Counted from the stretch's first letter, positions 1 to 8,840 are shown. The stretch is 64,000 nt of DNA from a virus (IMGVR_UViG_3300048925_000677:53569-117568), one strand, 5' to 3'. Program-made: numbers and translations. Notes: a model not told the origin generated them from the letters alone.

Positions 1-161
1 CCACAGAGAAGGCGGCCCACTTGGCAACCAAGTCACCGGTGTCGAGTTCGACGAACTCGTCGGTTTCCTTCAGGGCCTCGTGTACGGCGAGTTCCTGCCA
101 CGGGTCGAGGAATAGGCCGCAATCCGCGGCGAGGTCAATAGCGTCCTGGCCAGAGGAGGAA
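1..161 (-). CDS. partial ORF running off window start; possible terminase large subunit N-terminus
   Basis: Minus-strand frame open across 1-161 (..GLFLDPWQELAVHEALKETDEFVELDTGDLVAKWAAFSV). LDPWQ-type motif and position downstream of TerS-like/HNH genes. Start codon not resolved. Confidence 0.3.
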
Positions 162-557
162 TTAGCTTCCGGGGCTAGCCAGATCCTTGGTTCCTGAATT
201 CCTCTTAGCGGCAAGTCGTTCGGCGCGCTTAACAGCGAGCTGGTCATGTGAGGACTTCTCTCCGGATGATGCCTCCGGCAATTCGGAAATGCCCATCTTG
301 GCGAGAATTGTCGTGAAGGCGCTTAGTAGTTGGCGGTGCTCGGAGATCAGCGGGTTGGCCGTCTCGGTGCCCTGCCCATTGATGACGGTGAGCCGGGGGT
401 CGAGCTGGAATTCCGCGTCGATCCGGTCCAGCGTGTCCGCCATGCGGGCGACGTTGAGGCACTGAGCCCTATGGATTGCGTCGACTGGGCGCCCCTTGAT
501 GAGGGCCTCGTACACCGCCCGGCCGCGCTCGGCGAGGACGTCGTCGAAGTCCATCAA
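162..557 (-). CDS. putative terminase small subunit (P27-like)
   Basis: 131-aa ORF. Charged helical N-terminus, C-terminal ..AKRNSG.. tail. Lies between an HNH gene and the TerL-like fragment (HNH-TerS-TerL order). Confidence 0.4.
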   Translation of the reverse strand: MMDFDDVLAERGRAVYEALIKGRPVDAIHRAQCLNVARMADTLDRIDAEFQLDPRLTVINGQGTETANPLISEHRQLLSAFTTILAKMGISELPEASSGEKSSHDQLAVKRAERLAAKRNSGTKDLASPGS

Positions 558-907
558 TCCGAGAAGCTTTCCGACCAGGCCACATGGTCGGCGGACACGT
601 GCACGCGCTCGCCACTCCAGCCGTCAAGCCAGTGGTTGCCCTTTCGTCGGGCACACTCGGAAACACGCCCACCGGCCACGGTGATCGTCGCACCGCACGC
701 GGCGCCGGGCTCCTCATTGGGTTCGAGCTGCTCCGGATGGCTGGGTAGTTGTCCTCGCAAGTAGGCCAGCCAGCGCGTGTCATCCTCGGCTCGAATTGCT
801 TCAGCTACATCGAGACTCGTGACATTTCCCTCGCCATACACTGCGATGAGTTCGTCGATGACGCGGCGAACTTGGGCATCACGGTCGGGAATGGTGATGG
901 GGCACAT
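554..907 (-). CDS. hypothetical protein
   Basis: ORF 554..1177 trimmed to internal ATG at 907 (MCPITIPDRD..). The upstream part of the long ORF overlaps gene 1026..1997 and looks non-coding. Confidence 0.45.
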   Translation of the reverse strand: MCPITIPDRDAQVRRVIDELIAVYGEGNVTSLDVAEAIRAEDDTRWLAYLRGQLPSHPEQLEPNEEPGAACGATITVAGGRVSECARRKGNHWLDGWSGERVHVSADHVAWSESFSD

Positions 908-1025
908 TAGTCCTCCTTGGTGATCACCCAGGGTTGCTCGAATGCCACACCGAGTCGCGGCACGATGTAGACCTCGCCGGCTGGGAACGTGTCGAGAAGC
1001 TGGCCAAGGAGGCTGCCTTCGAGAT

Positions 1026-1997
1026 TTAAAGGGCCCACTTGTAATCCCTGTTGAGCTTGTCGATCTTCTGCTGCAACTCCTCCACGGGCGTTGCGTTGAA
1101 GGTTTGGTAGAGGTACGGGTGTTTGGAGGCCGCCAGCATCGGGCGCAGTTCCTCCAGGCGCTCGGGAGTCGCATCAACGCCGTCGAGGACCAGAACGTCA
1201 GCCATCAGGCCGACGCCGGAGTACTTGGAGTTGGCCAGGAACAGGATCTCGCCGCCCGAGCGCAAGAACTTGATGCGCTCATTGCTGTGGGCGGTGAAGA
1301 TGCGAATGTCATCCTCGATCCAGCGCTTCCCGATATCCTTCTGGACGTCAAGGGCTTTCCCGAATCGGCTGGCGATGTATACAACTCGCTTGCCGTCCAT
1401 GGCGTGCGAGATCATCGCCTCGATCAGTCGTTCGGTCTTGTCGAGTCCGGTGACGGTGATCTCTTGAATGCCGTCGGTACCCGAGTCGTTCCACGTGCCG
1501 CTGGCTACTAGCGCCGGGAAGTTGGCGATACCCTCAGGCGCGTTGATGGTGAATTGCTGCGCATCCACCGCGGCGATAGAGCCACCGCCATTGGGCGAGA
1601 TCGTGATGAAAGGCTTCTGCGGCGTGGTGGACAGATGCCAGCCACGCTCCTTGAGGACCGCCAGCAGCTCTTCAGCCGTCGCAGTACGGGCGTCGACGAC
1701 GGGCTCAGGCTCCGGGAGCGGTTCGGCCAGATCCTCGTCGAGGAAAACTGGCTCATGATCCGCGGGCGCCGGCTCGCGGAAGACCTTCACCGAGCGCGCG
1801 AACACCGTCATCGTGACGGTGGCGCACTTACTCTTGCTTCCAACCCCTTGGACGGTGATGTTCGCGTCCTCGGGCAAGAGGACTTCCATGCCGTTGATGC
1901 GAAGGTTCGTCGCCTTAACGGGAACGGCCTCGGCGAAGTCCCGGCGGTGGGTCTCGTAGATCTCGATATCGAGCGGAGTGAATTGGTCAAGCGGCAC
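1026..1997 (-). CDS. hypothetical protein (323 aa), possible RecA-like fold
   Basis: Long ORF with good coding look. C-terminal hydrophobic-stretch-then-D segment (GVGLMADVLVLDG). No confident family. Confidence 0.5.
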   Translation of the reverse strand: MPLDQFTPLDIEIYETHRRDFAEAVPVKATNLRINGMEVLLPEDANITVQGVGSKSKCATVTMTVFARSVKVFREPAPADHEPVFLDEDLAEPLPEPEPVVDARTATAEELLAVLKERGWHLSTTPQKPFITISPNGGGSIAAVDAQQFTINAPEGIANFPALVASGTWNDSGTDGIQEITVTGLDKTERLIEAMISHAMDGKRVVYIASRFGKALDVQKDIGKRWIEDDIRIFTAHSNERIKFLRSGGEILFLANSKYSGVGLMADVLVLDGVDATPERLEELRPMLAASKHPYLYQTFNATPVEELQQKIDKLNRDYKWAL

Positions 1998-2009
1998 TAG
2001 GTGTTCCCC

Positions 2010-2420
2010 CTATTGCTGGTTCACCGCCGCCATGAAGACTGGCCAGGGCATCGCTGGCGTATATGGCGCGTCGGCTTTTGAGGTATCTGTGGGCGCGTAG
2101 GCGCGGTCGTTGAGCCCCTCGCCACGCATGCGGTTGCATTCGGCGTGGAGGAGGCGATCTGGCGGGAGCACGGGCTCACCGCGGCGCAGAGACTCCGCGC
2201 GAGACATCTTGGAGTGATCGCCCTGAAGGACGCCATTGCCCCGCCGGCCGGGGTCGGACTTGTCGTAGTCGTAGTTCAGCGTGGCGTCGAGCCACATGGG
2301 CCGGCCACACCACGGCATCGGGCACGGTGACCCGTCCTTGAAAACGGATCGCAGGTAAGCCACCGCTTGCTGGTGCCGCCAGCCGAGGCCCTTCTCGGTC
2401 GTTGTTTTCTTAGCTGCCAT
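2010..2420 (-). CDS. HNH endonuclease
   Basis: 136 aa; Cys/His spacing CPMPWCGRPMW..GDH..HAECN typical of the HNH motif. Adjacent to the terminase module. Confidence 0.75.
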   Translation of the reverse strand: MAAKKTTTEKGLGWRHQQAVAYLRSVFKDGSPCPMPWCGRPMWLDATLNYDYDKSDPGRRGNGVLQGDHSKMSRAESLRRGEPVLPPDRLLHAECNRMRGEGLNDRAYAPTDTSKADAPYTPAMPWPVFMAAVNQQ

Positions 2421-2848
2421 GGCTAGATGCCCGTCAGTTACGGGCCCCGCACGAGCAGCAGATCCCGCCGATGTGCGTTGTGTACTGGGTGCAATACAGG
2501 CAGAGCTTGAAATCGCGCACGTTGCGTTCCTTATTTTTCGAATATTTGCTGAGGCGCCATCAACGGCGAAAATGTCTCATTATTGAGATAAATCTCTTAC
2601 CCGCGGGACTTGTGCGGTAGAATCCTGCATATGCGCAGGTCAGACGCGACTTTTCTGGGAAAAACCAACGGGGGGAGAAATACCGCTGACGATCTCAGCG
2701 TACGTATGTTCGCTGAACTTTTGACCCACCCCCGGGGGTGCCTGGTGCCCACGCTGGCGCCTGTGTGGGCGTGTGTGCAGCTCCGTTGTGGGTGGTCTGT
2801 TACGTCACGTGACGCTCCACGAGAGCTGTGCGAGGTTCTAGTTAGGTA

Positions 2849-2877
2849 TTGACAACTATCGAGAATGGCTGTAGTGT
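2849..2877 (+). promoter_or_regulatory. SigA-type promoter P1 (TTGACA-17-TAGTGT) with extended -35 GTTGACAACTA
   Basis: ttgaca 2849-2854, 17-nt spacer, tagtgt 2872-2877. Upstream of the plus-strand block that starts at 3034. Confidence 0.55.
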
Positions 2878-3033
2878 AATGAACATGAATAAGAGCACCT
2901 GCAATGCAGAGACATGGGATGGCAATGTGGACGATCCGTCCTATGCATACTGCGACCTGCCTCACGCACACGCTGGTGATCATCACTACGCGCTCTAGCT
3001 CATGAACAAATCACACACAGATGGGAATCACTA

Positions 3034-3270
3034 ATGCTCACACGTATCGCACTGGCATCCATCGCCATGGCGGCCGGCATGTATGGCGCACCTACCGCAT
3101 ATGCACAGCCTGTGCATGACTCTGCAACCGTCACTGTCGATGGTGTCGACTACCCGGTGTGCGCAGAGGAGGATTGCTCCGACCAACCGGGACAGATCGG
3201 TGTGTGGACCAATTCAGAAGGTGATCGGTATCTGTCGCTTGGTGAGTACAGCCTCTACGTCAATCCCTGA
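3034..3270 (+). CDS. small secreted protein
   Basis: 78 aa. N-terminal signal peptide (MLTRIALASIAMAAGMYGAPTAYA|QP), Cys-containing mature part. Confidence 0.5.
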   Translation: MLTRIALASIAMAAGMYGAPTAYAQPVHDSATVTVDGVDYPVCAEEDCSDQPGQIGVWTNSEGDRYLSLGEYSLYVNP

Positions 3271-3305
3271 TACGCGCGATTCTGCGCAGAGATGAGTTAG
3301 TGAGA

Positions 3306-3461
3306 ATGTCCTACTTTGACGATCTGACACCTGGTCAATCCGTCACCTACTGCGAACGGTCGGCCGTATTCGTTGCACACCACTACTCCGGTGATGGGTA
3401 CGTCATCGAATATGCGGACGGCACGCTGGCGACCGTCTACGCGCTGGTGGTGAAGCGATGA
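3306..3461 (+). CDS. hypothetical small protein (51 aa)
   Basis: Hand-translated MSYFDDLTPGQSVTYCERSAVFVAHHYSGDGYVIEYADGTLATVYALVVKR. ATGA overlap with next gene. Below the 60-aa ORF-track cutoff. Confidence 0.35.
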   Translation: MSYFDDLTPGQSVTYCERSAVFVAHHYSGDGYVIEYADGTLATVYALVVKR

Positions 3462-3613
3462 GTGCAGAGCGCGCCCGTAGGGCGGACAAGATCGCCGCGA
3501 AGTTCGAAAAGCAGGGCGATATGAGCAGCGCCGGTTACTGGCGCCAGAAGGCGGAGAACTACCGGAAACTGGTCGTCGCACGTGAGGTTGTCGAGAGCTG
3601 GAGTAACGCATGA
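3458..3613 (+). CDS. hypothetical small protein (51 aa)
   Basis: MSAERARRADKIAAKFEKQGDMSSAGYWRQKAENYRKLVVAREVVESWSNA. ATGA overlaps at both ends. Confidence 0.35.
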   Translation: MSAERARRADKIAAKFEKQGDMSSAGYWRQKAENYRKLVVAREVVESWSNA

Positions 3614-3699
3614 TCCGCGCAATGGTCGCTTCGGTCATCTTCGCCGCGATTATGGCCGAGAGCTTCAATATGGCCGCAACCCTGTTGGTGGCGCGATGA
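3610..3699 (+). CDS. hypothetical small membrane peptide (29 aa)
   Basis: MIRAMVASVIFAAIMAESFNMAATLLVAR. Hydrophobic; ATGA-coupled at both ends. Confidence 0.3.
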   Translation: MIRAMVASVIFAAIMAESFNMAATLLVAR

Positions 3700-3965
3700 A
3701 TGCCCGTCACGCCCTGGCGATGCTCGACGCGAATTGGCTAGACCATCTCGCCGCGATGCCTGCCGAGGAATTGCAGCGGCTACAGCGTGAGCTGCTTTCC
3801 ATGTCGCGACACCCGTCGCTGGCCCTCAACGCTCCAGCTCGGCTCATTGCCGGCGAGCGGATGAAGGACGTCGATGAGGAGATAGCGCGGCGATTCTCGG
3901 CCATCTGGGGACACGCGGACAATGACGCGCTATCCCTCCAGATGTACCGAATTACCCGTTCATAG
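3696..3965 (+). CDS. hypothetical protein
   Basis: ORF 3582..3965 trimmed to ATG 3696 (MNARHALAML..), which is ATGA-coupled to the upstream peptide. Confidence 0.45.
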   Translation: MNARHALAMLDANWLDHLAAMPAEELQRLQRELLSMSRHPSLALNAPARLIAGERMKDVDEEIARRFSAIWGHADNDALSLQMYRITRS

Positions 3966-3968
3966 TTG

Positions 3969-3997
3969 TTGACAACTACCGTCAATCGGGATAGAGT
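3969..3997 (+). promoter_or_regulatory. SigA-type promoter P2 (TTGACA-17-TAGAGT), extended -35 GTTGACAACTAC
   Basis: ttgaca 3969-3974, tagagt 3992-3997; ATG of next gene at 4004. Confidence 0.55.
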
Positions 3998-4003
3998 AAG
4001 AGC

Positions 4004-4504
4004 ATGACGAACACAGAACGCGCAATCGAACTCTCCGGCGCTGATATCGATGCCATTGTGGCCGGTTACCTGGAATGCCAGTTGTGGGCCGGACTGGACT
4101 ATGGACACACGGGTTGTGATGACAATGCGGAATGCAGAAACTCCGCAGACCCGGAACCGCACCCTTACGATGACAACTACTCGGTTGAGAATATCTCCCC
4201 CGAATACGTCGCCAAGGTTCGCGAAGAACTGTCAGACGTTGTCACGGCGCACCCGCTTGCGGTGCGGATGTATCTTGCACACCGTTCTACCAGAGAGCGC
4301 GTAGCGGCCGGTTTCAACAGGGTTGACGCTGTAATCACGTCGGAATACTTCGGCCATGACTTCTATCTGACCCGGGAACATCACGGCGTCGGATTCTGGG
4401 ACCGTGGACTGGGTGAGCTTGGCGAGTATCTGACCAAAATCGCGAAGTCTTACGGTTCCGCCGAAACGCTCTGGGACAACGGGGACGGAGTGCTCAATGC
4501 TTGA
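4004..4504 (+). CDS. hypothetical protein
   Basis: 166-aa ORF immediately downstream of P2. Confidence 0.5.
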   Translation: MTNTERAIELSGADIDAIVAGYLECQLWAGLDYGHTGCDDNAECRNSADPEPHPYDDNYSVENISPEYVAKVREELSDVVTAHPLAVRMYLAHRSTRERVAAGFNRVDAVITSEYFGHDFYLTREHHGVGFWDRGLGELGEYLTKIAKSYGSAETLWDNGDGVLNA

Positions 4505-4724
4505 TGCCGACTCCGACGCTGAGCTTATCCGTCTAGCGCGCAGGCATCCGCGGGATATGGATGTCCGCGCCGAATTGTGGGACCGCGCCGATATGGACGC
4601 TGAATACTGCGGCAGTTCGCAGCTCGCCGCAGATCTGACCCAGATGGGAATCAACCGGCCGACCATTGTTCACGCGTCGACCGAAGCACTCACCGACCGT
4701 TATCGCAAGCGGTACGAGAACTAA
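4497..4724 (+). CDS. hypothetical protein
   Basis: 75-aa ORF overlapping the upstream stop. Confidence 0.45.
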   Translation: MLDADSDAELIRLARRHPRDMDVRAELWDRADMDAEYCGSSQLAADLTQMGINRPTIVHASTEALTDRYRKRYEN

Positions 4725-4735
4725 GGACAGGGACA

Positions 4736-4978
4736 ATGAGCATTCACGGCATCGAAGCGCTACTCGCAGAAGCGGCAACAATAGCGAATGACAATCCCGA
4801 AGATGAGGCACAGGGAGCTTGCCAAGTCGTATTGTCAAATGGCGATTCGATCTCGGGTCGAATTGACAACGTAAGTGACGGGATTGCCGTGTTTGGCGAA
4901 AACGAACACGATGGAAGGCACCCGAGTTTTCCGCTATTCATTCGAGTGAGTCACGTACTCACGTTCCAGTACATCTAA
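4736..4978 (+). CDS. hypothetical protein
   Basis: 80-aa ORF. Confidence 0.45.
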   Translation: MSIHGIEALLAEAATIANDNPEDEAQGACQVVLSNGDSISGRIDNVSDGIAVFGENEHDGRHPSFPLFIRVSHVLTFQYI

Positions 4979-5007
4979 AGCCCCCGCCAGAACAGGGAGA
5001 CAGAGCA

Positions 5008-5124
5008 ATGAGCAAGCAAGCCAATAGCTACCGCAAGGTCTATCCGTCCCGCTGGGATATCCGCGCAGAGATGAACGCGCGGGAAATGTCCCGGGGCGCA
5101 ACCGTGCGGGTGCGTGTTCGATGA
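5008..5124 (+). CDS. hypothetical small protein (38 aa)
   Basis: ATG 5008 preceded by agggaga RBS; ATGA overlap with 5121 gene. Confidence 0.35.
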   Translation: MSKQANSYRKVYPSRWDIRAEMNAREMSRGATVRVRVR

Positions 5125-5312
5125 GCGCCAGTAAAGCGAAACGTGGTCAGAGGTGTGTGGTGTATTTAGGTGACGGATCGACCGTTACCGGCACGCTCAC
5201 CGGATATCGAACCGAGAATGCGGGCAAGTGGAACGTTGCTCGATACAAGCTAATCACGCTAGACGATGGCACCGAATACGCCACCATATTACCCGCTTAC
5301 CAAAGGGTCTGA
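5121..5312 (+). CDS. hypothetical protein
   Basis: 63-aa ORF. Confidence 0.45.
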   Translation: MSASKAKRGQRCVVYLGDGSTVTGTLTGYRTENAGKWNVARYKLITLDDGTEYATILPAYQRV

Positions 5313-5313
5313 A

Positions 5314-5919
5314 ATGAACGCATACCGTACCGAGACAGTCGATACCGTGGCCGGTGAGTACGTGATCGAATTGCACTACGACGAGGACGCAAGCAATCCC
5401 CTCACCGACTGGGACCATCCCGGGATGGCTTTCTGGGTCAACTACGATTCGTCGCGGTTGGTCGAGACGGACACACTGGACGAACCGCTAGACGAGGCGC
5501 CCGCCCGTGTAATGCGCGAATTCGTCCGGCTGGACAGTGACCAGGATGCCGTGATGAACCGGTTCAACAAATGGCGCGCGATCACGGGCAGCCCATGGAT
5601 GCTAGTCGCCGGTGAGGACTTATCGTCGCAGTCCGATTACTACCGGTGGTTCGCCCTAGTCGACACTCGCGAAGACTTCGGGCCAGACGGTCACGAGGCC
5701 GCGGTGCAGCTCACGATGGATGTCTACCGCAGATGGGCCGCTGGCGAGTTCTGCGGGCATGTCGTCACCGGTCCGGATGGTCACGAGGTCGATTCGTGCT
5801 GGGGTATCGACGATGACGACTACGCACTGAGTGAGGCGCGCGCCACCATTGAGGCAGATGTGCCCGAACGTGTCGCAGCGGCAAACCGGGTCGGTAGCGG
5901 CTTTGTGGGTGTGCTGTGA
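5314..5919 (+). CDS. hypothetical protein
   Basis: ORF 5266..5919 trimmed to ATG 5314 (MNAYRTETVD..), 2 nt after the upstream stop. Confidence 0.5.
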   Translation: MNAYRTETVDTVAGEYVIELHYDEDASNPLTDWDHPGMAFWVNYDSSRLVETDTLDEPLDEAPARVMREFVRLDSDQDAVMNRFNKWRAITGSPWMLVAGEDLSSQSDYYRWFALVDTREDFGPDGHEAAVQLTMDVYRRWAAGEFCGHVVTGPDGHEVDSCWGIDDDDYALSEARATIEADVPERVAAANRVGSGFVGVL

Positions 5920-6005
5920 GCCTCATTCGCAGATGGATAGCGGCCTACCGGCGCGCGTTCCCGCCCATTGACAACTCTGACGACCGATTCAACTGGTAGG
6001 GACCA

Positions 6006-6464
6006 ATGAACGATCAAACGCTAGTCGCTGATCTGGTAGACCGTGGCGAACCGCTGGCAGAGTCGCCGGTCGACTGCTACCTAGAGGTGGACCGCGACGA
6101 CCACAAGGCGATCATTGTGTGGCGCGAACCGCTGGCATTCCATATCGAGTGGAACGGCGCCCGGTGGTCGGAACATGCCGACAGTGACGGGTGGCTGGCC
6201 AGCAGCGCTGAACTTCAGTTCGCGAACCGTCTGACCGACTACCTACGTCGTGCGGGTGTCGATGATGCCGACGTCTACACAGAGGGATACAACGGTGAGG
6301 ACGAACCGACACTCACGTTCGAAGTGGTCACGCCGTACCGTGCCGGCGAAACCTTCAAGTCTTGGTTTGACCGTATCGGCTGGCCTGTCGTCGCGACACT
6401 GACCAACGTCACGGACCCGGGCACGTTCATGAGTCCGTACCTGTTCGACATGACATCGCTGTGA
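6006..6464 (+). CDS. hypothetical protein
   Basis: 152-aa ORF. A degenerate copy of the TTGACAACT motif lies at 5968-5976 upstream. Confidence 0.5.
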   Translation: MNDQTLVADLVDRGEPLAESPVDCYLEVDRDDHKAIIVWREPLAFHIEWNGARWSEHADSDGWLASSAELQFANRLTDYLRRAGVDDADVYTEGYNGEDEPTLTFEVVTPYRAGETFKSWFDRIGWPVVATLTNVTDPGTFMSPYLFDMTSL

Positions 6465-6895
6465 CGTGCACCGCTTACGCTAGTCCCATGACAGATACGC
6501 AAACATGCCGGTTGCCAGGGTGCGACAACCCTGTTGACGTCCAGTCCGAGCAGCTCTGTATGGGTCACTATCGACGTATGCGTCGGGCCGACCGCGCCGG
6601 CCTGCCCGACTGGGACAAGACTCCGATTAAGCCACGGGCGGCGAGTGTCGCAACACGTGCCGACGCGCCCATAGACCTGGCAGAGATTCGCGAACTGTCC
6701 GGCGTTACGCCGTATGACATCGCGCGCGCCATGGGGTACTCAGGCGGCCGTGAGATGGCATCCAACGTGCGGCAGATGGAAGCGCGCAAAGACTGGCTAC
6801 TGTCCCGATTGGCGGGGTACCTGGCCGCGGTAGGTGCGACGGCCGACCTGGTGGTTAACGTCGGCGGACAAGAGCTTGTGTACGAGATTGTTTAG
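6461..6895 (+). CDS. putative DNA-binding protein with N-terminal zinc ribbon
   Basis: 144 aa. CRLPGC..CMGHYRR Cys/His cluster followed by a helical region; ATGA overlap. Confidence 0.4.
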   Translation: MTCTAYASPMTDTQTCRLPGCDNPVDVQSEQLCMGHYRRMRRADRAGLPDWDKTPIKPRAASVATRADAPIDLAEIRELSGVTPYDIARAMGYSGGREMASNVRQMEARKDWLLSRLAGYLAAVGATADLVVNVGGQELVYEIV

Positions 6896-6898
6896 GTG

Positions 6899-6927
6899 TT
6901 GACAACTACGGTCATGCCCGCTAGACT
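6899..6927 (+). promoter_or_regulatory. SigA-type promoter P3 (TTGACA-17-TAGACT), extended -35 GTTGACAACTAC
   Basis: ttgaca 6899-6904, tagact 6922-6927; gene start 6961. Confidence 0.55.
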
Positions 6928-6960
6928 AGACGTATAAGCAATCAACCGGAAGGCAAGAAA

Positions 6961-7476
6961 ATGAGCGAATCAACCGCCGAAATGCTGGCAAAGCAGGTCG
7001 ACTACGCCGCCGAGAGGATCGCCGAGTACGCGCGACAGATCGAATCGGGCGACTACGGCAACCGGTGGACCGTCACTGATTCGGAAACTGACGAAGAACA
7101 CGTCATCATTGCGCAGGATGAGGATAGCGCCATTGACGCTGTGCGTGACCTCATCCCCGGGGTGGTCAAGGATCACGAACTGCTAGCCGAGCGCGACGAA
7201 TTCGAAGTGCCGACCATCTGCGATGAGGATGGCAACGAAGAATCAATCGAGGATTGGCCCCTGGCCGTCGTCGTCAAGATCGGTCAGCCGCTCGCAGTTC
7301 AGATCGCGGTGGGCGGACCGCACATTGAGATTGTGCAGGACTTGAGCGAAGGCAGCGCCAAGCTCGCTGGCTACTGGGGTGGTGAGCGCGTTTACCGCTA
7401 TGGCGACAAGTTCCAGACCGTACTGGACTACTTCACCGACCTGCTGTGGGACGAAGCTCCGGAGGAATACAAGTGA
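6961..7476 (+). CDS. hypothetical acidic protein
   Basis: 171-aa ORF. Confidence 0.5.
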   Translation: MSESTAEMLAKQVDYAAERIAEYARQIESGDYGNRWTVTDSETDEEHVIIAQDEDSAIDAVRDLIPGVVKDHELLAERDEFEVPTICDEDGNEESIEDWPLAVVVKIGQPLAVQIAVGGPHIEIVQDLSEGSAKLAGYWGGERVYRYGDKFQTVLDYFTDLLWDEAPEEYK

Positions 7477-7634
7477 TATACGCCGAAGGCAAGATCGTGC
7501 TAGACGATGGCGAGACCATCGAGTTCTACATCGACGTCGATGGGAACATATCCCGTTGGGGCAATACGAACCGCATCCTTGGGTTATCGGTGGACGCAAC
7601 AGAGGCATTCCGCGACGCATTACTGGAGGTGTGA
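7473..7634 (+). CDS. hypothetical small protein
   Basis: GTG 7473 in GTGA overlap with upstream stop; (V)IYAEGKIVLDDGETIEFYIDVDG... Confidence 0.4.
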   Translation: MIYAEGKIVLDDGETIEFYIDVDGNISRWGNTNRILGLSVDATEAFRDALLEV

Positions 7635-7635
7635 C

Positions 7636-7881
7636 ATGGGCGTGATGAAAGAACTTGCGACCGAACTGGAATTGCATTGGCAGACGTTCCCGATTGGCGG
7701 GTACCGGCGCCAGATGCCCAACGGTGACATGGCCATGATCAAACCGGCCGGTGATCGGTGGCGACTCACCGCCGGCGAATGGCAGCTATCGGCCGACACC
7801 CTGCCCGAAGCGGTGGCGGTGGCGGGCCGGCTGGCGCGTGAGCAGCTCACGGAGATTGCAGAGACATGGGCCGCAGCATGA
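7636..7881 (+). CDS. hypothetical protein
   Basis: ORF 7507..7881 trimmed to ATG 7636 (MGVMKELATE..). Confidence 0.45.
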   Translation: MGVMKELATELELHWQTFPIGGYRRQMPNGDMAMIKPAGDRWRLTAGEWQLSADTLPEAVAVAGRLAREQLTEIAETWAAA

Positions 7882-8150
7882 TCCCCGCCGAGGACCTAGC
7901 CGAGGATGACTTGATCGACCTGGTACCCATCTTGGATGACGCGCAAGCGCACCCGTGGATCTGGCAGCCATTCGGCGAGGACGACAACGAGCGCCGCAAT
8001 GCCGTCCAAGGCGCGCGCATGATTGCCGAATGTGAATATGCGGCAGTCGAGTCGGTGGAGGTGGGCGCCGAGGCGACGGTGATCTATACCGACCAGATGA
8101 ACGTAACGGTGCCTCGCGGGTACCTGGTGAAACGGAGCGTGGACGCATGA
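7866..8150 (+). CDS. hypothetical protein
   Basis: 94-aa ORF. Confidence 0.45.
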   Translation: MGRSMIPAEDLAEDDLIDLVPILDDAQAHPWIWQPFGEDDNERRNAVQGARMIAECEYAAVESVEVGAEATVIYTDQMNVTVPRGYLVKRSVDA

Positions 8151-8350
8151 CCGAGACTTTCGGCGACACGGCGTTAGCGCCAGCGCCCAGCGATAGCGGT
8201 CGCGACAACCTCACGGATGTTGTGGACGTCTACGCACACCACAGCGACACGCATGACGGCATCAACGTCGAGATCGACGCGCCGGCCGGTGTTCGCATCA
8301 CGGTCCACGTCAACGATGGCCGCGTGGTCGATCTGGTGGTGCCGGAATGA
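8147..8350 (+). CDS. hypothetical protein
   Basis: 67-aa ORF, ATGA-coupled. Confidence 0.45.
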   Translation: MTETFGDTALAPAPSDSGRDNLTDVVDVYAHHSDTHDGINVEIDAPAGVRITVHVNDGRVVDLVVPE

Positions 8351-8586
8351 GCGAATACGGACGCGGTCGGGAATTGGGATTGGTCGACGGCTGGAATGAC
8401 GCGCTAGACGCGATGATTGACCGTCTGGGTAGCGCGGCCGAATCGCTGGACGAAATGTCGAATGCCAAATGCTCTCAGCCGGGTAAACCGCTCCCTGGCA
8501 TGACCGGAGATTATGACCGGTTGCGCGGCAAGCGCTCTGGCGTATTGCTGGCCTTGGACTACGCGCGAGGCATGAAGCACCAATAA
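8347..8586 (+). CDS. hypothetical protein
   Basis: 79-aa ORF, ATGA-coupled. Confidence 0.45.
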   Translation: MSEYGRGRELGLVDGWNDALDAMIDRLGSAAESLDEMSNAKCSQPGKPLPGMTGDYDRLRGKRSGVLLALDYARGMKHQ

Positions 8587-8614
8587 GCGTTTAGCTATTG
8601 GTATGAATTAAGCA

Positions 8615-8643
8615 TTGACAACTACGGAGAATTGACATAGAGT
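8615..8643 (+). promoter_or_regulatory. SigA-type promoter P4 (TTGACA-17-TAGAGT), extended -35 TTGACAACTAC
   Basis: ttgaca 8615-8620, tagagt 8638-8643. A second ttgaca sits inside the spacer (8632-8637). Confidence 0.5.
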
Positions 8644-8686
8644 AGTAACTGTTCGGGAAGTTCCCGAACAGGGAGGAGCAAGGGAA

Positions 8687-8776
8687 ATGATGTACCAGAT
8701 CATGGCCCTTATCCTCACCCTTCCGGGCGCGGTGGCGTCGATCCTCGTGATCGTCGACCACTTCCGCAAGAAGTAG
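8687..8776 (+). CDS. small membrane peptide (29 aa)
   Basis: gggaggag RBS at 8671-8678, then ATG 8687; MMYQIMALILTLPGAVASILVIVDHFRKK. Confidence 0.35.
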   Translation: MMYQIMALILTLPGAVASILVIVDHFRKK

Positions 8777-8840
8777 TGAGGAGCCTGTCCAGCGCTACGG
8801 CGCTGGGCAGGCGCTCCGCCCACCATTGTAGGGGGTAACC

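What the first reader, a model, noticed from the sequence alone, without database searches (positions are those of the whole stretch)
2849..8643. Family of four near-identical promoters with an extended conserved -35 (GTTGACAACTAC-n-TAGAGT)
P1-P4 (2849, 3969, 6899, 8615) each have TTGACA, an exact 17-nt spacer, and a TA(G)nnT -10 hexamer. They also share five or more additional conserved bases immediately 3' of the -35 hexamer (AACTAC). A degenerate fifth copy lies at 5968. This is more conservation than sigma-70 recognition needs, which suggests an overlapping operator for a phage repressor (stoperator-like, compare the TGTCAA-containing L5 sites) or an anti-sigma/activator contact. They partition the plus-strand early block into four transcription units.
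Basis: seen in the sequence. Interest (0 to 1): 0.5.

Follow-up and report, generated by a model that had tools for sequence, protein, structure and literature searches.

The report
Early phage promoters with built-in operator
Four near-identical early promoters of an uncultured relative of Cluster J mycobacteriophages each appear to carry a symmetric repressor-binding site built around the -35 box; related phages have the same arrangement with their own version of the site, and it has not been described for this group in the literature I could search.

Summary
TTGACAACTA(C/T)-N12-TAGNNT occurs four times (2849, 3969, 6899, 8615), all on the + strand, against 0.00 expected. These are the only TTGACN-16..18-TANNNT sites in the 64 kb. 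The fifth copy (5968) has no -10 box and cannot be told from chance.

The window is a metagenomic phage distantly related (~67% nt) to Cluster J mycobacteriophages such as Omega. Cluster J genomes carry 4-7 homologous promoters in the fetched right-end stretches, and eight further uncultured lineages carry 3-5 each. In most lineages the -35 hexamer sits at the centre of a 16-18 bp inverted repeat (centre -33.5, span about -41 to -26). The arms differ by lineage but stay symmetric, for example CTAGGTGT-TG-ACACCTAG, TGTGCATGT-TG-ACATGCACA and CGAGAGTGT-TG-ACACTCTCG.

Deviations within a genome are rarely compensated in the other arm (2 of 48). The window copies do not fold into stable hairpins. 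This favours a dimeric DNA-binding protein over an RNA structure.

The immunity-region regulators are unlikely readers. The best candidate is a small HigA-like Xre protein encoded at 6560-6895, but binding is untested.

Verdict: sigma-A early promoters fused to an operator. This is a new member of a known kind and of moderate interest.

The parts
2843..2877 (+). P1. Operator-like element 2843-2858 (TAGGTAT-TG-ACAACTA; 5 of its 7 arm pairs symmetric), -35 at 2849-2854, -10 TAGTGT at 2872-2877. The predicted start is 2884/2885, where the ATG at 2885 opens a 37-codon ORF. The first called gene starts at 3034.
3963..4004 (+). P2. Perfect 7+2+7 inverted repeat 3963-3978 (TAGTTGT-TG-ACAACTA), -35 at 3969-3974, -10 TAGAGT at 3992-3997. 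The A of the ATG at 4004 lies exactly 7 nt after the -10, so the mRNA for gene 4004-4504 is predicted to be leaderless. The TAG at 3963-3965 is the stop codon of the upstream gene.
6893..6934 (+). P3. Element 6893-6908 (TAGGTGT-TG-ACAACTA), -35 at 6899-6904, -10 TAGACT at 6922-6927, predicted +1 at A6934. The leader carries a GGAAGG ribosome-binding site before the ATG at 6961. P3 corresponds to the Omega promoter upstream of gp211. The TAG at 6893-6895 is the stop codon of the Xre gene.
8609..8650 (+). P4. Element 8609-8624 (TAAGCAT-TG-ACAACTA; the left arm is weak), -35 at 8615-8620, -10 TAGAGT at 8638-8643, predicted +1 near 8650. It lies upstream of a 29-codon ORF (8687-8776) and the Ku-like gene (9026-9913). 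P4 corresponds to the Omega promoter upstream of the Ku gene, whose left arm TTAAGTAT is similar.
5968..5978 (+). Doubtful fifth copy, TTGACAACTCT. It is intergenic (between 5919 and 6006) but has no -10 hexamer at 16-19 nt and no left arm. It may be a decayed copy or chance.
6560..6895 (+). Candidate reader of the element: a small Xre-family HTH protein (homologue of Omega gp212; PHROG 6826). The model shows four helices plus a C-terminal beta hairpin, closest to the M. tuberculosis HigA3/HigA2 antitoxins. The gene lies in the unit driven by P2 and ends inside the P3 element.
8649..8671 (+). Perfect 10-bp stem with a 3-nt loop at the very 5' end of the predicted P4 transcript (-16.8 kcal/mol, z -4.6). 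Role unknown: it could stabilise the 5' end or be a separate palindromic binding site.

Best explanation
P1-P4 are host SigA (sigma-70-type) early promoters. Each is fused to an operator, a roughly 16-bp dyad-symmetric element centred on the TG of the -35 hexamer (centre -33.5, span about -41 to -26).

Proposed mechanism (inferred, not shown):
- On infection, host RNA polymerase fires all four promoters.
- A phage-encoded dimeric helix-turn-helix protein then binds across the -35 box and blocks sigma region 4. This shuts down, or feedback-limits, the whole right-end early block at once.
- The most likely reader is the small HigA-like Xre protein encoded at 6560-6895. It is made from the P2 unit, so the circuit would be negatively autoregulated.

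What is shown: the sequence family, its symmetry, and its lineage-specific arms.
What is inferred: promoter activity, protein binding, the identity of the binder and the sign of regulation.
For: (1) Promoter
- All four have a perfect TTGACA, an exact 17-nt spacer and TAGNNT, all co-oriented with the genes.
- In P2, and in 31 of 75 family members across 15 genomes, an ATG or GTG starts exactly 6 nt after the -10 box, so its first base lies at the 7th position, the usual +1. Four more start 7 nt after it. Roughly 3% would be expected at a fixed offset (my estimate). This arrangement is expected for leaderless mycobacterial mRNAs. Positions +1/+2 are conserved as A-T even in the leadered copies.

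(2) Dyad element
- Cluster J genomes have CTAGGTGT-TG-ACACCTAG.
- Uncultured relatives have CGTA(G/T)GTGT-TG-ACAC(C/A)TACG (L201, L219), CGAGAGTGT-TG-ACACTCTCG (L202), AAGCGTGT-TG-ACACGC(G/T)T (L220), AGGGTGT-TG-ACACCCT (L197, L218) and TGTGCATGT-TG-ACATGCACA (L198).
- For seven of the eight non-window lineage groups, the left-arm consensus equals the reverse complement of the right-arm consensus over at least the inner seven positions. L219 differs at one position.
- Within-genome identity is near 1.0 from -41 to -26, with matching dips at -39 and -28, and falls to about 0.3 outside this span and in the rest of the spacer.

(3) Protein site rather than hairpin
- Of 48 arm positions that deviate from their lineage consensus, only 2 are compensated in the other arm.
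- The window copies fold at 0 to -4.2 kcal/mol, no better than most shuffles.
- In the L204-L207 lineage the palindrome TAGACT(A/T)T-T(G/A)-ACAGTCTA appears to sit at different places relative to the predicted -10 box (about -33.5, -26.5, -19.5 and +5), as repressor operators do. Those promoter assignments are my readings of weaker sequence matches.

(4) Not the immunity regulators
- No copy lies in the immunity intergenic region of the window or of Omega.
- The immunity-region proteins of the two phages are unrelated, while the promoter arms differ at only 1-2 positions.

(5) Xre candidate
- It is the only recognised HTH family among those shared by most lineages in the early block.
- It carries PF01381 in several homologues and matches PHROG 6826.
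- The model (pLDDT above 90 over the conserved domain) best matches the DNA-bound HigA3 and the HigA2 antitoxins (TM 0.73-0.80 normalised to the target). From memory, those bind palindromes as dimers.
- The turn plus the start of the recognition helix (residues 60-68) is the only indel-rich stretch of the domain and contains several of its highest-entropy columns.
- Helix classes track arm classes. For example, two lineages with LSPxSGR(V/I)T both have GTA(G/T)GTGT arms.
Against: - No transcription or binding data exist.
- In the window itself only P2 is fully symmetric. The right arm ACAACTA is invariant in 4 of 4 copies, while three left arms keep the Cluster J-like TAGGT(G/A)T or TAAGCAT. 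The window alone would therefore not reveal a dyad.
- The link between Xre helix class and arm class is confounded by phylogeny.
- L201 and L219 have arms almost identical to Cluster J but a different helix-turn sequence.
- The 6.6-kb fragment L197 has four cassettes but no Xre gene.
- One Xre homologue (L221) sits in a 3.7-kb contig without any cassette.
- Some spacers are also similar between copies (L220 and some Cluster J copies), so part of the similarity comes from duplication.
- How these strong promoters are silenced in a lysogen is not explained if the immunity repressor does not bind them.
Confidence: 0.6

Rival explanations
1. The sites are operators of the prophage immunity repressor. 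Under this reading the immunity-region HTH protein (61051-61485 or 60641-60913) binds the extended -35 at P1-P4 and keeps the early right-end genes off in lysogens, as L5 gp71 does at Pleft.
For: - Temperate relatives must silence these strong promoters in lysogens.
- Cluster J phages are homoimmune and share the same arms (PMC3706429).
- The Cluster A Pleft operator likewise overlaps a promoter (PMC6550527).
Against: - No copy or half-site lies in the immunity intergenic region of the window or of Omega.
- The window's immunity region has its own, different palindrome, ATGTCTCAGTATTGAGAC, with a second copy at 2572-2589.
- The window and Omega immunity proteins show no significant similarity, although their promoter arms are almost the same.
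Confidence: 0.12
2. This is a plain promoter family with no trans-acting reader. The extra conservation would reflect duplication of a promoter cassette within each genome and homogenisation by recombination. Symmetry would be a by-product of the partly palindromic TGTTGACA.
For: Spacers are nearly identical in some copies, for example the three L220 copies and several Cluster J copies ending in ...GAGCG before the -10 box. This shows that the copies are paralogues.
Against: - In L198 and L202 the 8-9 bp arms are almost invariant among the four copies (L198 invariant; L202 differs at up to two outer positions), while the rest of the spacer and the flanks have diverged to background.
- Duplication does not explain why the left and right arms are reverse complements in lineage after lineage.
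- It also does not explain why the L204-type palindrome is kept at sites where it cannot act as a -35 box.
Confidence: 0.13
3. The inverted repeat works as a nucleic-acid hairpin. It would act as a terminator, processing site or 3'-end stabiliser for the upstream transcript, or as a DNA cruciform, and would only happen to be placed on the -35 box.
For: - In L198 and L202 the RNA would fold at -10.7 and -14.0 kcal/mol (z -2.3 and -3.6).
- The stop codon of the upstream gene often lies in the left arm.
Against: - Window copies fold at only 0 to -4.2 kcal/mol.
- Only 2 of 48 deviating positions are compensated, plus 9 of G-U type.
- All copies in a genome share one arm sequence, which base pairing alone does not require.
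- There is no U-tract.
- Rfam finds nothing.
Confidence: 0.05
4. The bases next to the -35 box are contacted by RNA polymerase or by a polymerase-bound factor that stimulates transcription. The factor could be a phage activator, a sigma appropriator or a host factor.
For: The right arm lies inside the promoter and is invariant in the window while the left arm is not. The upstream arm is moderately AT-rich.
Against: - The promoters already match consensus, so they should not need activation.
- Lineage-specific arms argue against a host contact.
- A symmetric site centred at -33.5 covers the hexamer that sigma must read.
- The palindrome occurs at non-promoter-like offsets in L204.
Confidence: 0.08

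Closest known systems
Cluster A mycobacteriophage (L5, Bxb1) repressor operator at Pleft, and stoperators
   Same: - It is an actinobacteriophage early lytic promoter at the right genome end, driving leftward genes.
- The repressor site at Pleft lies within the promoter (PMC6550527). From memory, it overlaps the -35 box and runs into the spacer (L5 consensus GGTGGMTGTCAAG, whose complement reads CTTGACA...).
- Site sequences differ between heteroimmune subclusters.
- A Cluster A-like pattern was seen in passing in L002 (TTGACACGTAAC).
   Different: - Cluster A sites are 13-14 bp, asymmetric and bound by a monomer. There are 20-30 per genome, mostly away from promoters and oriented with transcription, and the binder is the immunity repressor.
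- Here the element is dyad-symmetric in relatives, and I found it only at predicted promoters (4-7 per genome). The immunity regulators are unlikely binders.
Cro/CI-type and other Xre-family dimers on palindromic operators (lambda, 434, P22; HigA antitoxins; restriction-modification controller C proteins)
   Same: - A small five-helix-type HTH protein is paired with a 14-18 bp palindrome overlapping core promoter elements.
- Specificity resides in the start of the recognition helix.
- The closest structural matches of the candidate protein are HigA3/HigA2, then ClgR, C.Esp1396I, HipB and lambda repressor.
   Different: - There is one operator per promoter rather than tripartite operators.
- The operator core is the -35 hexamer itself.
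- The gene is not in the divergent immunity cassette.
- No toxin partner travels with it consistently.
Streptomyces phage phiC31 conserved inverted repeats (CIRs) at multiple early promoters (recalled from memory, not checked here)
   Same: It is an actinophage whose early region has many similar promoters, each associated with a conserved inverted repeat of about 17 bp that is bound by a phage repressor.
   Different: - In phiC31 the binder is the immunity repressor (gene c).
- The early promoters there are not consensus sigma-70 type.
- No sequence relationship was tested.
Cluster O mycobacteriophages: 8-9 strongly predicted SigA-like promoters plus more than 30 copies of a 17-bp palindrome (PMC4351075)
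   Same: - There are several strongly predicted SigA-like promoters, some leaderless.
- They include four promoters within a long leftward right-end block that encodes Ku.
- A conserved palindrome of unknown function is densest at the right end.
   Different: - In Cluster O the palindrome (TGTTCGGNNNCCGAACA) is not reported as part of the promoters.
- About a third of its copies lie inside genes.
- The sequence is unrelated to the -35-centred element here. Only the hairpin in the P4 leader shares those arm sequences.

Membership tests
SigA / sigma-70-type promoter | -35 hexamer close to TTGACA and -10 hexamer TANNNT, separated by 16-18 nt | tested here: met
   All four have TTGACA, 17 nt and TAG(T/A)(G/C)T.
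SigA / sigma-70-type promoter | Transcription starts 6-8 nt downstream of the -10 hexamer | not testable with these tools
   There is only indirect support. The ATG of gene 4004-4504 begins 7 nt after the P2 -10 box. In 31 of 75 family members an ATG or GTG is at that same position, and +1/+2 are conserved as A-T.
Cluster A stoperator/operator system | 13-14 bp site lacking dyad symmetry | tested here: not met
   The element is a 7-9 bp inverted repeat round TG in most related lineages and in window P2. Defining feature taken from PMC6550527.
Cluster A stoperator/operator system | 20-30 sites dispersed through the genome, mostly not at promoters, oriented with transcription | tested here: not met
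   The 64-kb window has four sites and whole Omega has 6-7. All lie at predicted promoters in one block. Looser matches are in-frame codon strings.
Cluster A stoperator/operator system | Bound by the immunity repressor | not testable with these tools
   Indirect evidence is against it. No site lies in the immunity region, and the immunity proteins of the window and Omega are unrelated.
Palindromic operator of a dimeric Xre/Cro-type HTH regulator | Dyad symmetry with both half-sites conserved | tested here: inconclusive
   This is met clearly in the eight related lineage groups tabulated. In the window itself only P2 is symmetric (7+2+7). P1 and P3 match at 5-6 of the 8 arm pairs from -42 to -25 and P4 at 3 of 8.
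Palindromic operator of a dimeric Xre/Cro-type HTH regulator | Site overlaps core promoter elements so that binding would exclude RNA polymerase | tested here: met
   The centre is at -33.5 and the span -41 to -26 covers the whole -35 hexamer.
Palindromic operator of a dimeric Xre/Cro-type HTH regulator | A cognate HTH protein encoded by the same element binds the site | not testable with these tools
   A candidate was found (6560-6895; Xre fold with a HigA-like beta hairpin; the specificity region is variable). Binding is untested.
Intrinsic terminator / structured RNA hairpin | Stable stem maintained by compensatory changes, followed by a U-tract | tested here: not met
   Window copies fold at 0 to -4.2 kcal/mol. 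Only 2 of 48 deviations are compensated. There is no U-tract and no Rfam match.

The most novel reading that the evidence does not exclude
The early right-end block of Cluster J-like phages would be governed by a second regulatory circuit that is independent of the immunity system. In it, an early HigA-like Xre dimer shuts off every consensus SigA promoter by sitting on its -35 box. This protein-operator pair would have diversified into at least eight distinct arm sequences, possibly mutually orthogonal specificities. The window phage would be caught part-way through a specificity switch: all four promoter-proximal arms have changed (C to A at -29, G to C/T at -25), while three of the four distal arms are still the ancestral Cluster J type.
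Probability: 0.3. Interest if true: 0.6.

Novelty: new member of a known kind. Interest (0 to 1): 0.4.

Why it matters
- It points to where transcription of the large, almost wholly uncharacterised right-end gene block of Cluster J mycobacteriophages and their uncultured relatives probably starts. The Cluster J genome paper does not use the words promoter or operator.
- It offers a set of compact, strong, probably repressible promoters with at least eight natural arm variants. These would be useful parts for mycobacterial genetics if the regulator is confirmed.
- The lineage-specific but symmetric arms, together with a candidate regulator whose variable segment is the DNA-reading turn and helix, form a natural series for studying how a repressor-operator pair changes specificity across many copies at once.
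- The concept itself, an operator overlapping a phage early promoter, is well known.

Tried and rejected
- Exact-pattern scans of genome contigs and viral contigs with TTGACAACTAC-N12-TAGANT returned only single matches in unrelated taxa, so they found no relatives.
- A protein-pattern scan of genome contigs found nothing. The metagenome-contig scan gave only four loci, all belonging to lineages already in hand.
- Near-identity BLAST against phage records found only a 75-bp match in the early region.
- Pfam found nothing on 18 early proteins apart from Ku/Lsr2. Rfam found nothing in 1-13000.
- Literal searches of the paper library for the motif strings returned only unrelated papers.
- The apparent genome-wide excess of 2-mismatch matches is rejected as a codon artefact.
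- The idea that the palindrome is an immunity operator was tested against both immunity regions and found unsupported.
- A toxin-antitoxin reading of the Xre gene (with the upstream gp213-like gene) is rejected, because that neighbour is present only in the window and the Cluster J genomes.
- The last contig look-up (P0075, giving L221) landed in a non-phage-like context without a cassette. P0083 was not on record.

Full report
**1. The observation**

| Site | -35 (TTGACA) | Spacer | -10 |
|---|---|---|---|
| P1 | 2849-2854 | 17 nt | TAGTGT 2872-2877 |
| P2 | 3969-3974 | 17 nt | TAGAGT 3992-3997 |
| P3 | 6899-6904 | 17 nt | TAGACT 6922-6927 |
| P4 | 8615-8620 | 17 nt | TAGAGT 8638-8643 |

- Each hexamer is followed by ACTA(C/T).
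- The composite pattern TTGACAACTAY-N12-TAGNNT, with up to one mismatch allowed, has four matches (all exact) against 0.00 expected in 100 shuffles.
- A scan of both strands of the whole window for TTGACN-(16-18)-TANNNT finds these four and nothing else. Every consensus-type promoter candidate in 64 kb therefore belongs to the family.
- The fifth copy (5968, TTGACAACTCT) is intergenic but has no -10-like hexamer at any usable spacing and no upstream conservation. About seven matches at 2 mismatches or fewer are expected by chance, so it cannot be called.
- The excess of loose matches (25 against 7.3) is mostly a codon effect. In 15 of 17 cases tested the match reads in frame as GAC-AAC-TAC-like codons of the longest ORF.

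**2. Where the window comes from**

- The early block is about 67% identical at the DNA level to the right-end, leftward-transcribed genes (gp200-gp238) of Omega and other Cluster J mycobacteriophages.
- The product of 6961-7476 is found with 100% identity only in metagenome assemblies: a JGI contig of 123 kb and Logan contigs.
- The window is the reverse complement of the usual Cluster J orientation. Positions 1-2420 carry minus-strand genes on the terminase/portal side. The integrase and a divergent HTH pair lie at 60.6-64 kb.

**3. The same promoter family in relatives, and what the extra bases are**

Omega has homologous sites in the corresponding block, for example cTAGGTGTTGACACCTAa-N-TAGACT upstream of gp211 and TTAAGTATTGACACCTAG upstream of Ku. 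These correspond to window P3 and P4. A scan of the complete Omega genome finds six clear copies and one degenerate copy. All lie between 101.7 and 110.5 kb on the leftward strand, and none lies elsewhere.

Seven Cluster J right ends carry 44 copies in total, 4 to 7 per genome in the stretches fetched. In Cluster J the -35 hexamer is the centre of an inverted repeat, CTAGGTGT-TG-ACACCTAG.

Uncultured relatives were reached through homologues of the 6961-7476 protein and of the Xre protein. They show the same architecture with different arms:

| Lineage | Element |
|---|---|
| Cluster J | CTAGGTGT-TG-ACACCTAG |
| L201, L219 | CGTA(G/T)GTGT-TG-ACAC(C/A)TACG |
| L202/L208 | CGAGAGTGT-TG-ACACTCTCG |
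| L220 | AAGCGTGT-TG-ACACGC(G/T)T |
| L197, L218 | AGGGTGT-TG-ACACCCT |
| L198/L199 | TGTGCATGT-TG-ACATGCACA |

- For seven of the eight non-window lineage groups, the consensus left arm equals the reverse complement of the consensus right arm over at least the inner seven positions. L219 differs at one position.
- Within-genome pairwise identity, averaged over 15 genomes, is near 1.0 from -41 to -26, with matching dips at -39 and -28. It falls to about 0.3 upstream of -42 and through the rest of the spacer, then rises again at the -10 box and at +1/+2. Positions -35 to -30, -11 and -7 are 1.0 by construction of the site list, and the list also required at least 5 of 9 symmetric pairs. The other positions were not directly selected for identity between copies.

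**4. The window is the least symmetric member**

- P2 is a perfect 7+2+7 repeat, TAGTTGT-TG-ACAACTA.
- In P1, P3 and P4 the right arm is the same ACAACTA, but the left arms are TAGGTAT, TAGGTGT and TAAGCAT. These are the Cluster J-type arms of the corresponding promoters.
- Relative to Cluster J, all four right arms carry the same two changes: C to A at -29 and G to C/T at -25. Only one left arm carries the compensating change.
- I cannot fully explain this. It fits a reader that tolerates a weaker distal half-site, or a specificity change that is still in progress.

**5. Evidence that these are promoters**

There are no transcript data here, so promoter activity is inferred.

- All four match the consensus hexamers and spacing.
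- The ATG of gene 4004-4504 begins exactly 7 nt after the P2 -10 box.
- Across the family, 31 of 75 sites (21 of 51 non-redundant sites) have an ATG or GTG starting exactly 6 nt after the -10 box, so its first base is at the 7th position. Four more have one starting 7 nt after it. Roughly 3% would be expected at a fixed position (my estimate).
- This is the layout of leaderless mRNAs, which are common in mycobacteria (established knowledge).
- The other copies have purine-rich ribosome-binding sites 20-35 nt downstream.
- No terminator-like site accompanies any promoter. 'Four transcription units' is therefore not established, and nested read-through transcripts are equally likely.

**6. Protein site or hairpin?**

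- The arms change between lineages while staying complementary, which could mean either a nucleic-acid structure or a co-evolving dimeric protein.
- Within genomes, 48 arm positions deviate from the lineage consensus. Only 2 are compensated by a Watson-Crick change in the other arm, and 9 are of G-U type. The G/T and C/A alternation at -39 and -28 occurs independently in the two arms.
- All copies in a genome share one arm sequence, which pairing alone would not require.
- As RNA, the window elements fold at -1.6, -4.2, -1.9 and 0 kcal/mol, no better than most shuffles. The L198 and L202 elements would fold at -10.7 and -14.0 kcal/mol.
- In the L204-L207 lineage the palindrome TAGACT(A/T)T-T(G/A)-ACAGTCTA occurs four times. 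By my reading of the weaker promoter elements there, it sits at different offsets from the likely -10 box: about -33.5, -26.5, -19.5 and +5. That is what repressor operators do, and at three of those offsets it cannot serve as a -35 box.
- I conclude that a sequence-specific dimeric protein is the best reader. This is an inference.

**7. Which protein?**

*Immunity regulators.* The divergent HTH pair (60641-60913 on the minus strand; 61051-61485 on the plus strand) matches PHROG 'transcriptional repressor' families.
- Its intergenic region contains a different palindrome, ATGTCTCAGTATTGAGAC (61020-61037), and no copy of the promoter element.
- The same holds for the gp100/gp102 region of Omega.
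- The window proteins show no significant similarity to Omega gp100 or gp102, although the promoter arms of the two phages differ at only one or two positions.

*The Xre candidate.* Among ORF families shared across the early blocks of nine genomes, the only one recognised as a DNA-binding protein is the family of window 6560-6895, which is the homologue of Omega gp212.
- It is an Xre-type HTH. Several homologues carry PF01381, and it matches PHROG 6826.
- Its stop codon lies inside the P3 element.
- An AlphaFold model (mean pLDDT 82.7, above 90 over residues 40-111) has four helices and a C-terminal beta hairpin.
- Its best PDB matches are M. tuberculosis HigA3 (DNA-bound) and HigA2, with TM 0.73-0.80 normalised to the target and 20-29% identity. 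ClgR, C.Esp1396I, HipB and lambda repressor follow. Foldseek E-values are modest (0.004 at best).
- The turn and the first residues of the recognition helix (residues 60-68) form the only indel-rich stretch of the domain and contain several of its highest-entropy columns.
- Helix classes go with arm classes:

| Recognition-region class | Arms |
|---|---|
| YxGGxExAS (Cluster J and window) | TAG(G/T)TGT |
| LSPxSGR(V/I)T (L201, L219) | GTA(G/T)GTGT |
| SSYAT (L202) | GAGAGTGT |
| ASYNT (L220) | AAGCGTGT |
| SDYRA (L198) | GTGCATGT |
| RGQRA (L204) | TAGACTAT |
| SATGQRT (L218) | AGGGTGT |

*Limits of this evidence.*
- The correlation is confounded by shared ancestry.
- L201 and L219 share nearly the Cluster J arms but not the Cluster J helix.
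- The short contig L197 has four cassettes and no Xre gene.
- The homologue in L221 has no cassette nearby.
- I put about 0.45 on this particular protein, and about 0.7 on 'some phage-encoded dimeric DNA-binding protein'.

**8. Mechanism proposed**

- Host SigA holoenzyme fires P1-P4 on infection.
- The Xre dimer, made from the P2 unit, binds across each -35 hexamer and excludes sigma region 4. This gives coordinated shut-off, or negative feedback, of the early right-end block.
- A site centred at -33.5 on a consensus promoter is hard to reconcile with activation.
- How these promoters are held off in a lysogen remains open.
- A 16/18 copy of the immunity-type palindrome lies at 2572-2589, 260 bp upstream of P1, and a half-like copy lies at 2902-2915. 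The immunity system may therefore act on the right end through its own sites.

**9. Comparison with known systems**

- *Cluster A.* The Pleft operator and stoperators resemble this element in overlapping an early right-end promoter and in being subcluster-specific. They differ in three defining features: those sites are asymmetric, bound by a monomer, and dispersed 20-30 per genome (PMC6550527). This is not a stoperator system.
- *Cro/CI/HigA/C-protein.* It works like operators of this type.
- *Cluster O.* Those phages have several SigA-like promoters and a separate 17-bp palindrome of unknown function (PMC4351075).
- *phiC31.* Its conserved inverted repeats at multiple early promoters are a further analogue, recalled from memory and not checked.
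- *Prior description.* The Cluster J genome paper contains no occurrence of 'promoter' or 'operator' (PMC3706429). No paper in the searchable library contains the motif strings in a phage context.

**10. Verdict**

The stoperator analogy and the proposed binders are not.
- This is a new member of a known kind, and the interest is moderate.

Noticed in passing
window 61020-61037 and 2572-2589 (also 2902-2915, minus strand): The immunity region has its own 18-bp palindrome, ATGTCTCAGTATTGAGAC. It lies in the spacer of a TTGCAC-18-TAGGAT promoter whose -10 box is followed 7 nt later by the ATG at 61051, so the repressor-like gene may be leaderless. A 16/18 copy (ATGTCTCATTATTGAGAT) lies in the non-coding stretch 260 bp upstream of P1, and a half-like copy lies just downstream of P1. 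This suggests that the immunity system also acts on the right end through sites distinct from the P1-P4 elements.
   Followed up: partly
window 8649-8671: A perfect 10-bp stem with a 3-nt loop sits at the predicted 5' end of the P4 transcript (-16.8 kcal/mol, z -4.6). Its outer arms TGTTCGG...CCGAACA are identical to the arms of the Cluster O 17-bp repeat TGTTCGGNNNCCGAACA, but are separated by 7 nt rather than 3. It occurs once in the window and is absent from the corresponding Omega leader.
   Followed up: partly
L204 281-297, 2993-3009, 5601-5617, 7899-7915; L205-L207: In this lineage the homologous palindrome TAGACT(A/T)T-T(G/A)-ACAGTCTA appears to sit at varied distances from the likely -10 hexamers. 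In two copies its core reads TTAACA, so it is kept even where it cannot be a -35 box.
   Followed up: partly
L002 315 and 2013; L203 8699, 9365, 8242(-), 6171(-): Other phage types that carry a homologue of the 6961-7476 protein have asymmetric extended -35 boxes: TTGACACGTAAC in L002, and in L203 the variants TTGACACACAACG (twice), TTGACATACAACG and TTGACACGCAACG. These resemble Cluster A operator/stoperator sequences read on the other strand. That resemblance is recalled from memory and was not tested.
   Followed up: no
window 1-3034: Minus-strand structural-side genes (to 2420) abut the plus-strand early block across a 600-bp non-coding stretch. The genome ends are therefore joined in this contig, and the cos or packaging site probably lies at 2420-2840.
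   Followed up: no
window 9026-9913: The Ku-like protein carries a C-terminal Lsr2-type DNA-binding domain (Pfam Ku 2.6e-42, Lsr2_DNA-bd 4.2e-12). The same fusion is seen in most relatives.
   Followed up: no
window 2885-2998 and 8687-8776: Very small ORFs (37 and 29 codons) lie directly downstream of P1 and P4. Omega gp229 (27 codons) is placed in the same way after one of its promoters. Whether they are translated is unknown.
   Followed up: no
Omega (L003 382-418 = NC_004688 about 110448-110484): The rightmost Omega promoter copy lies inside the annotated start of gp237. An ATG 7 nt after its -10 box suggests that the annotated start is too far upstream.
   Followed up: no
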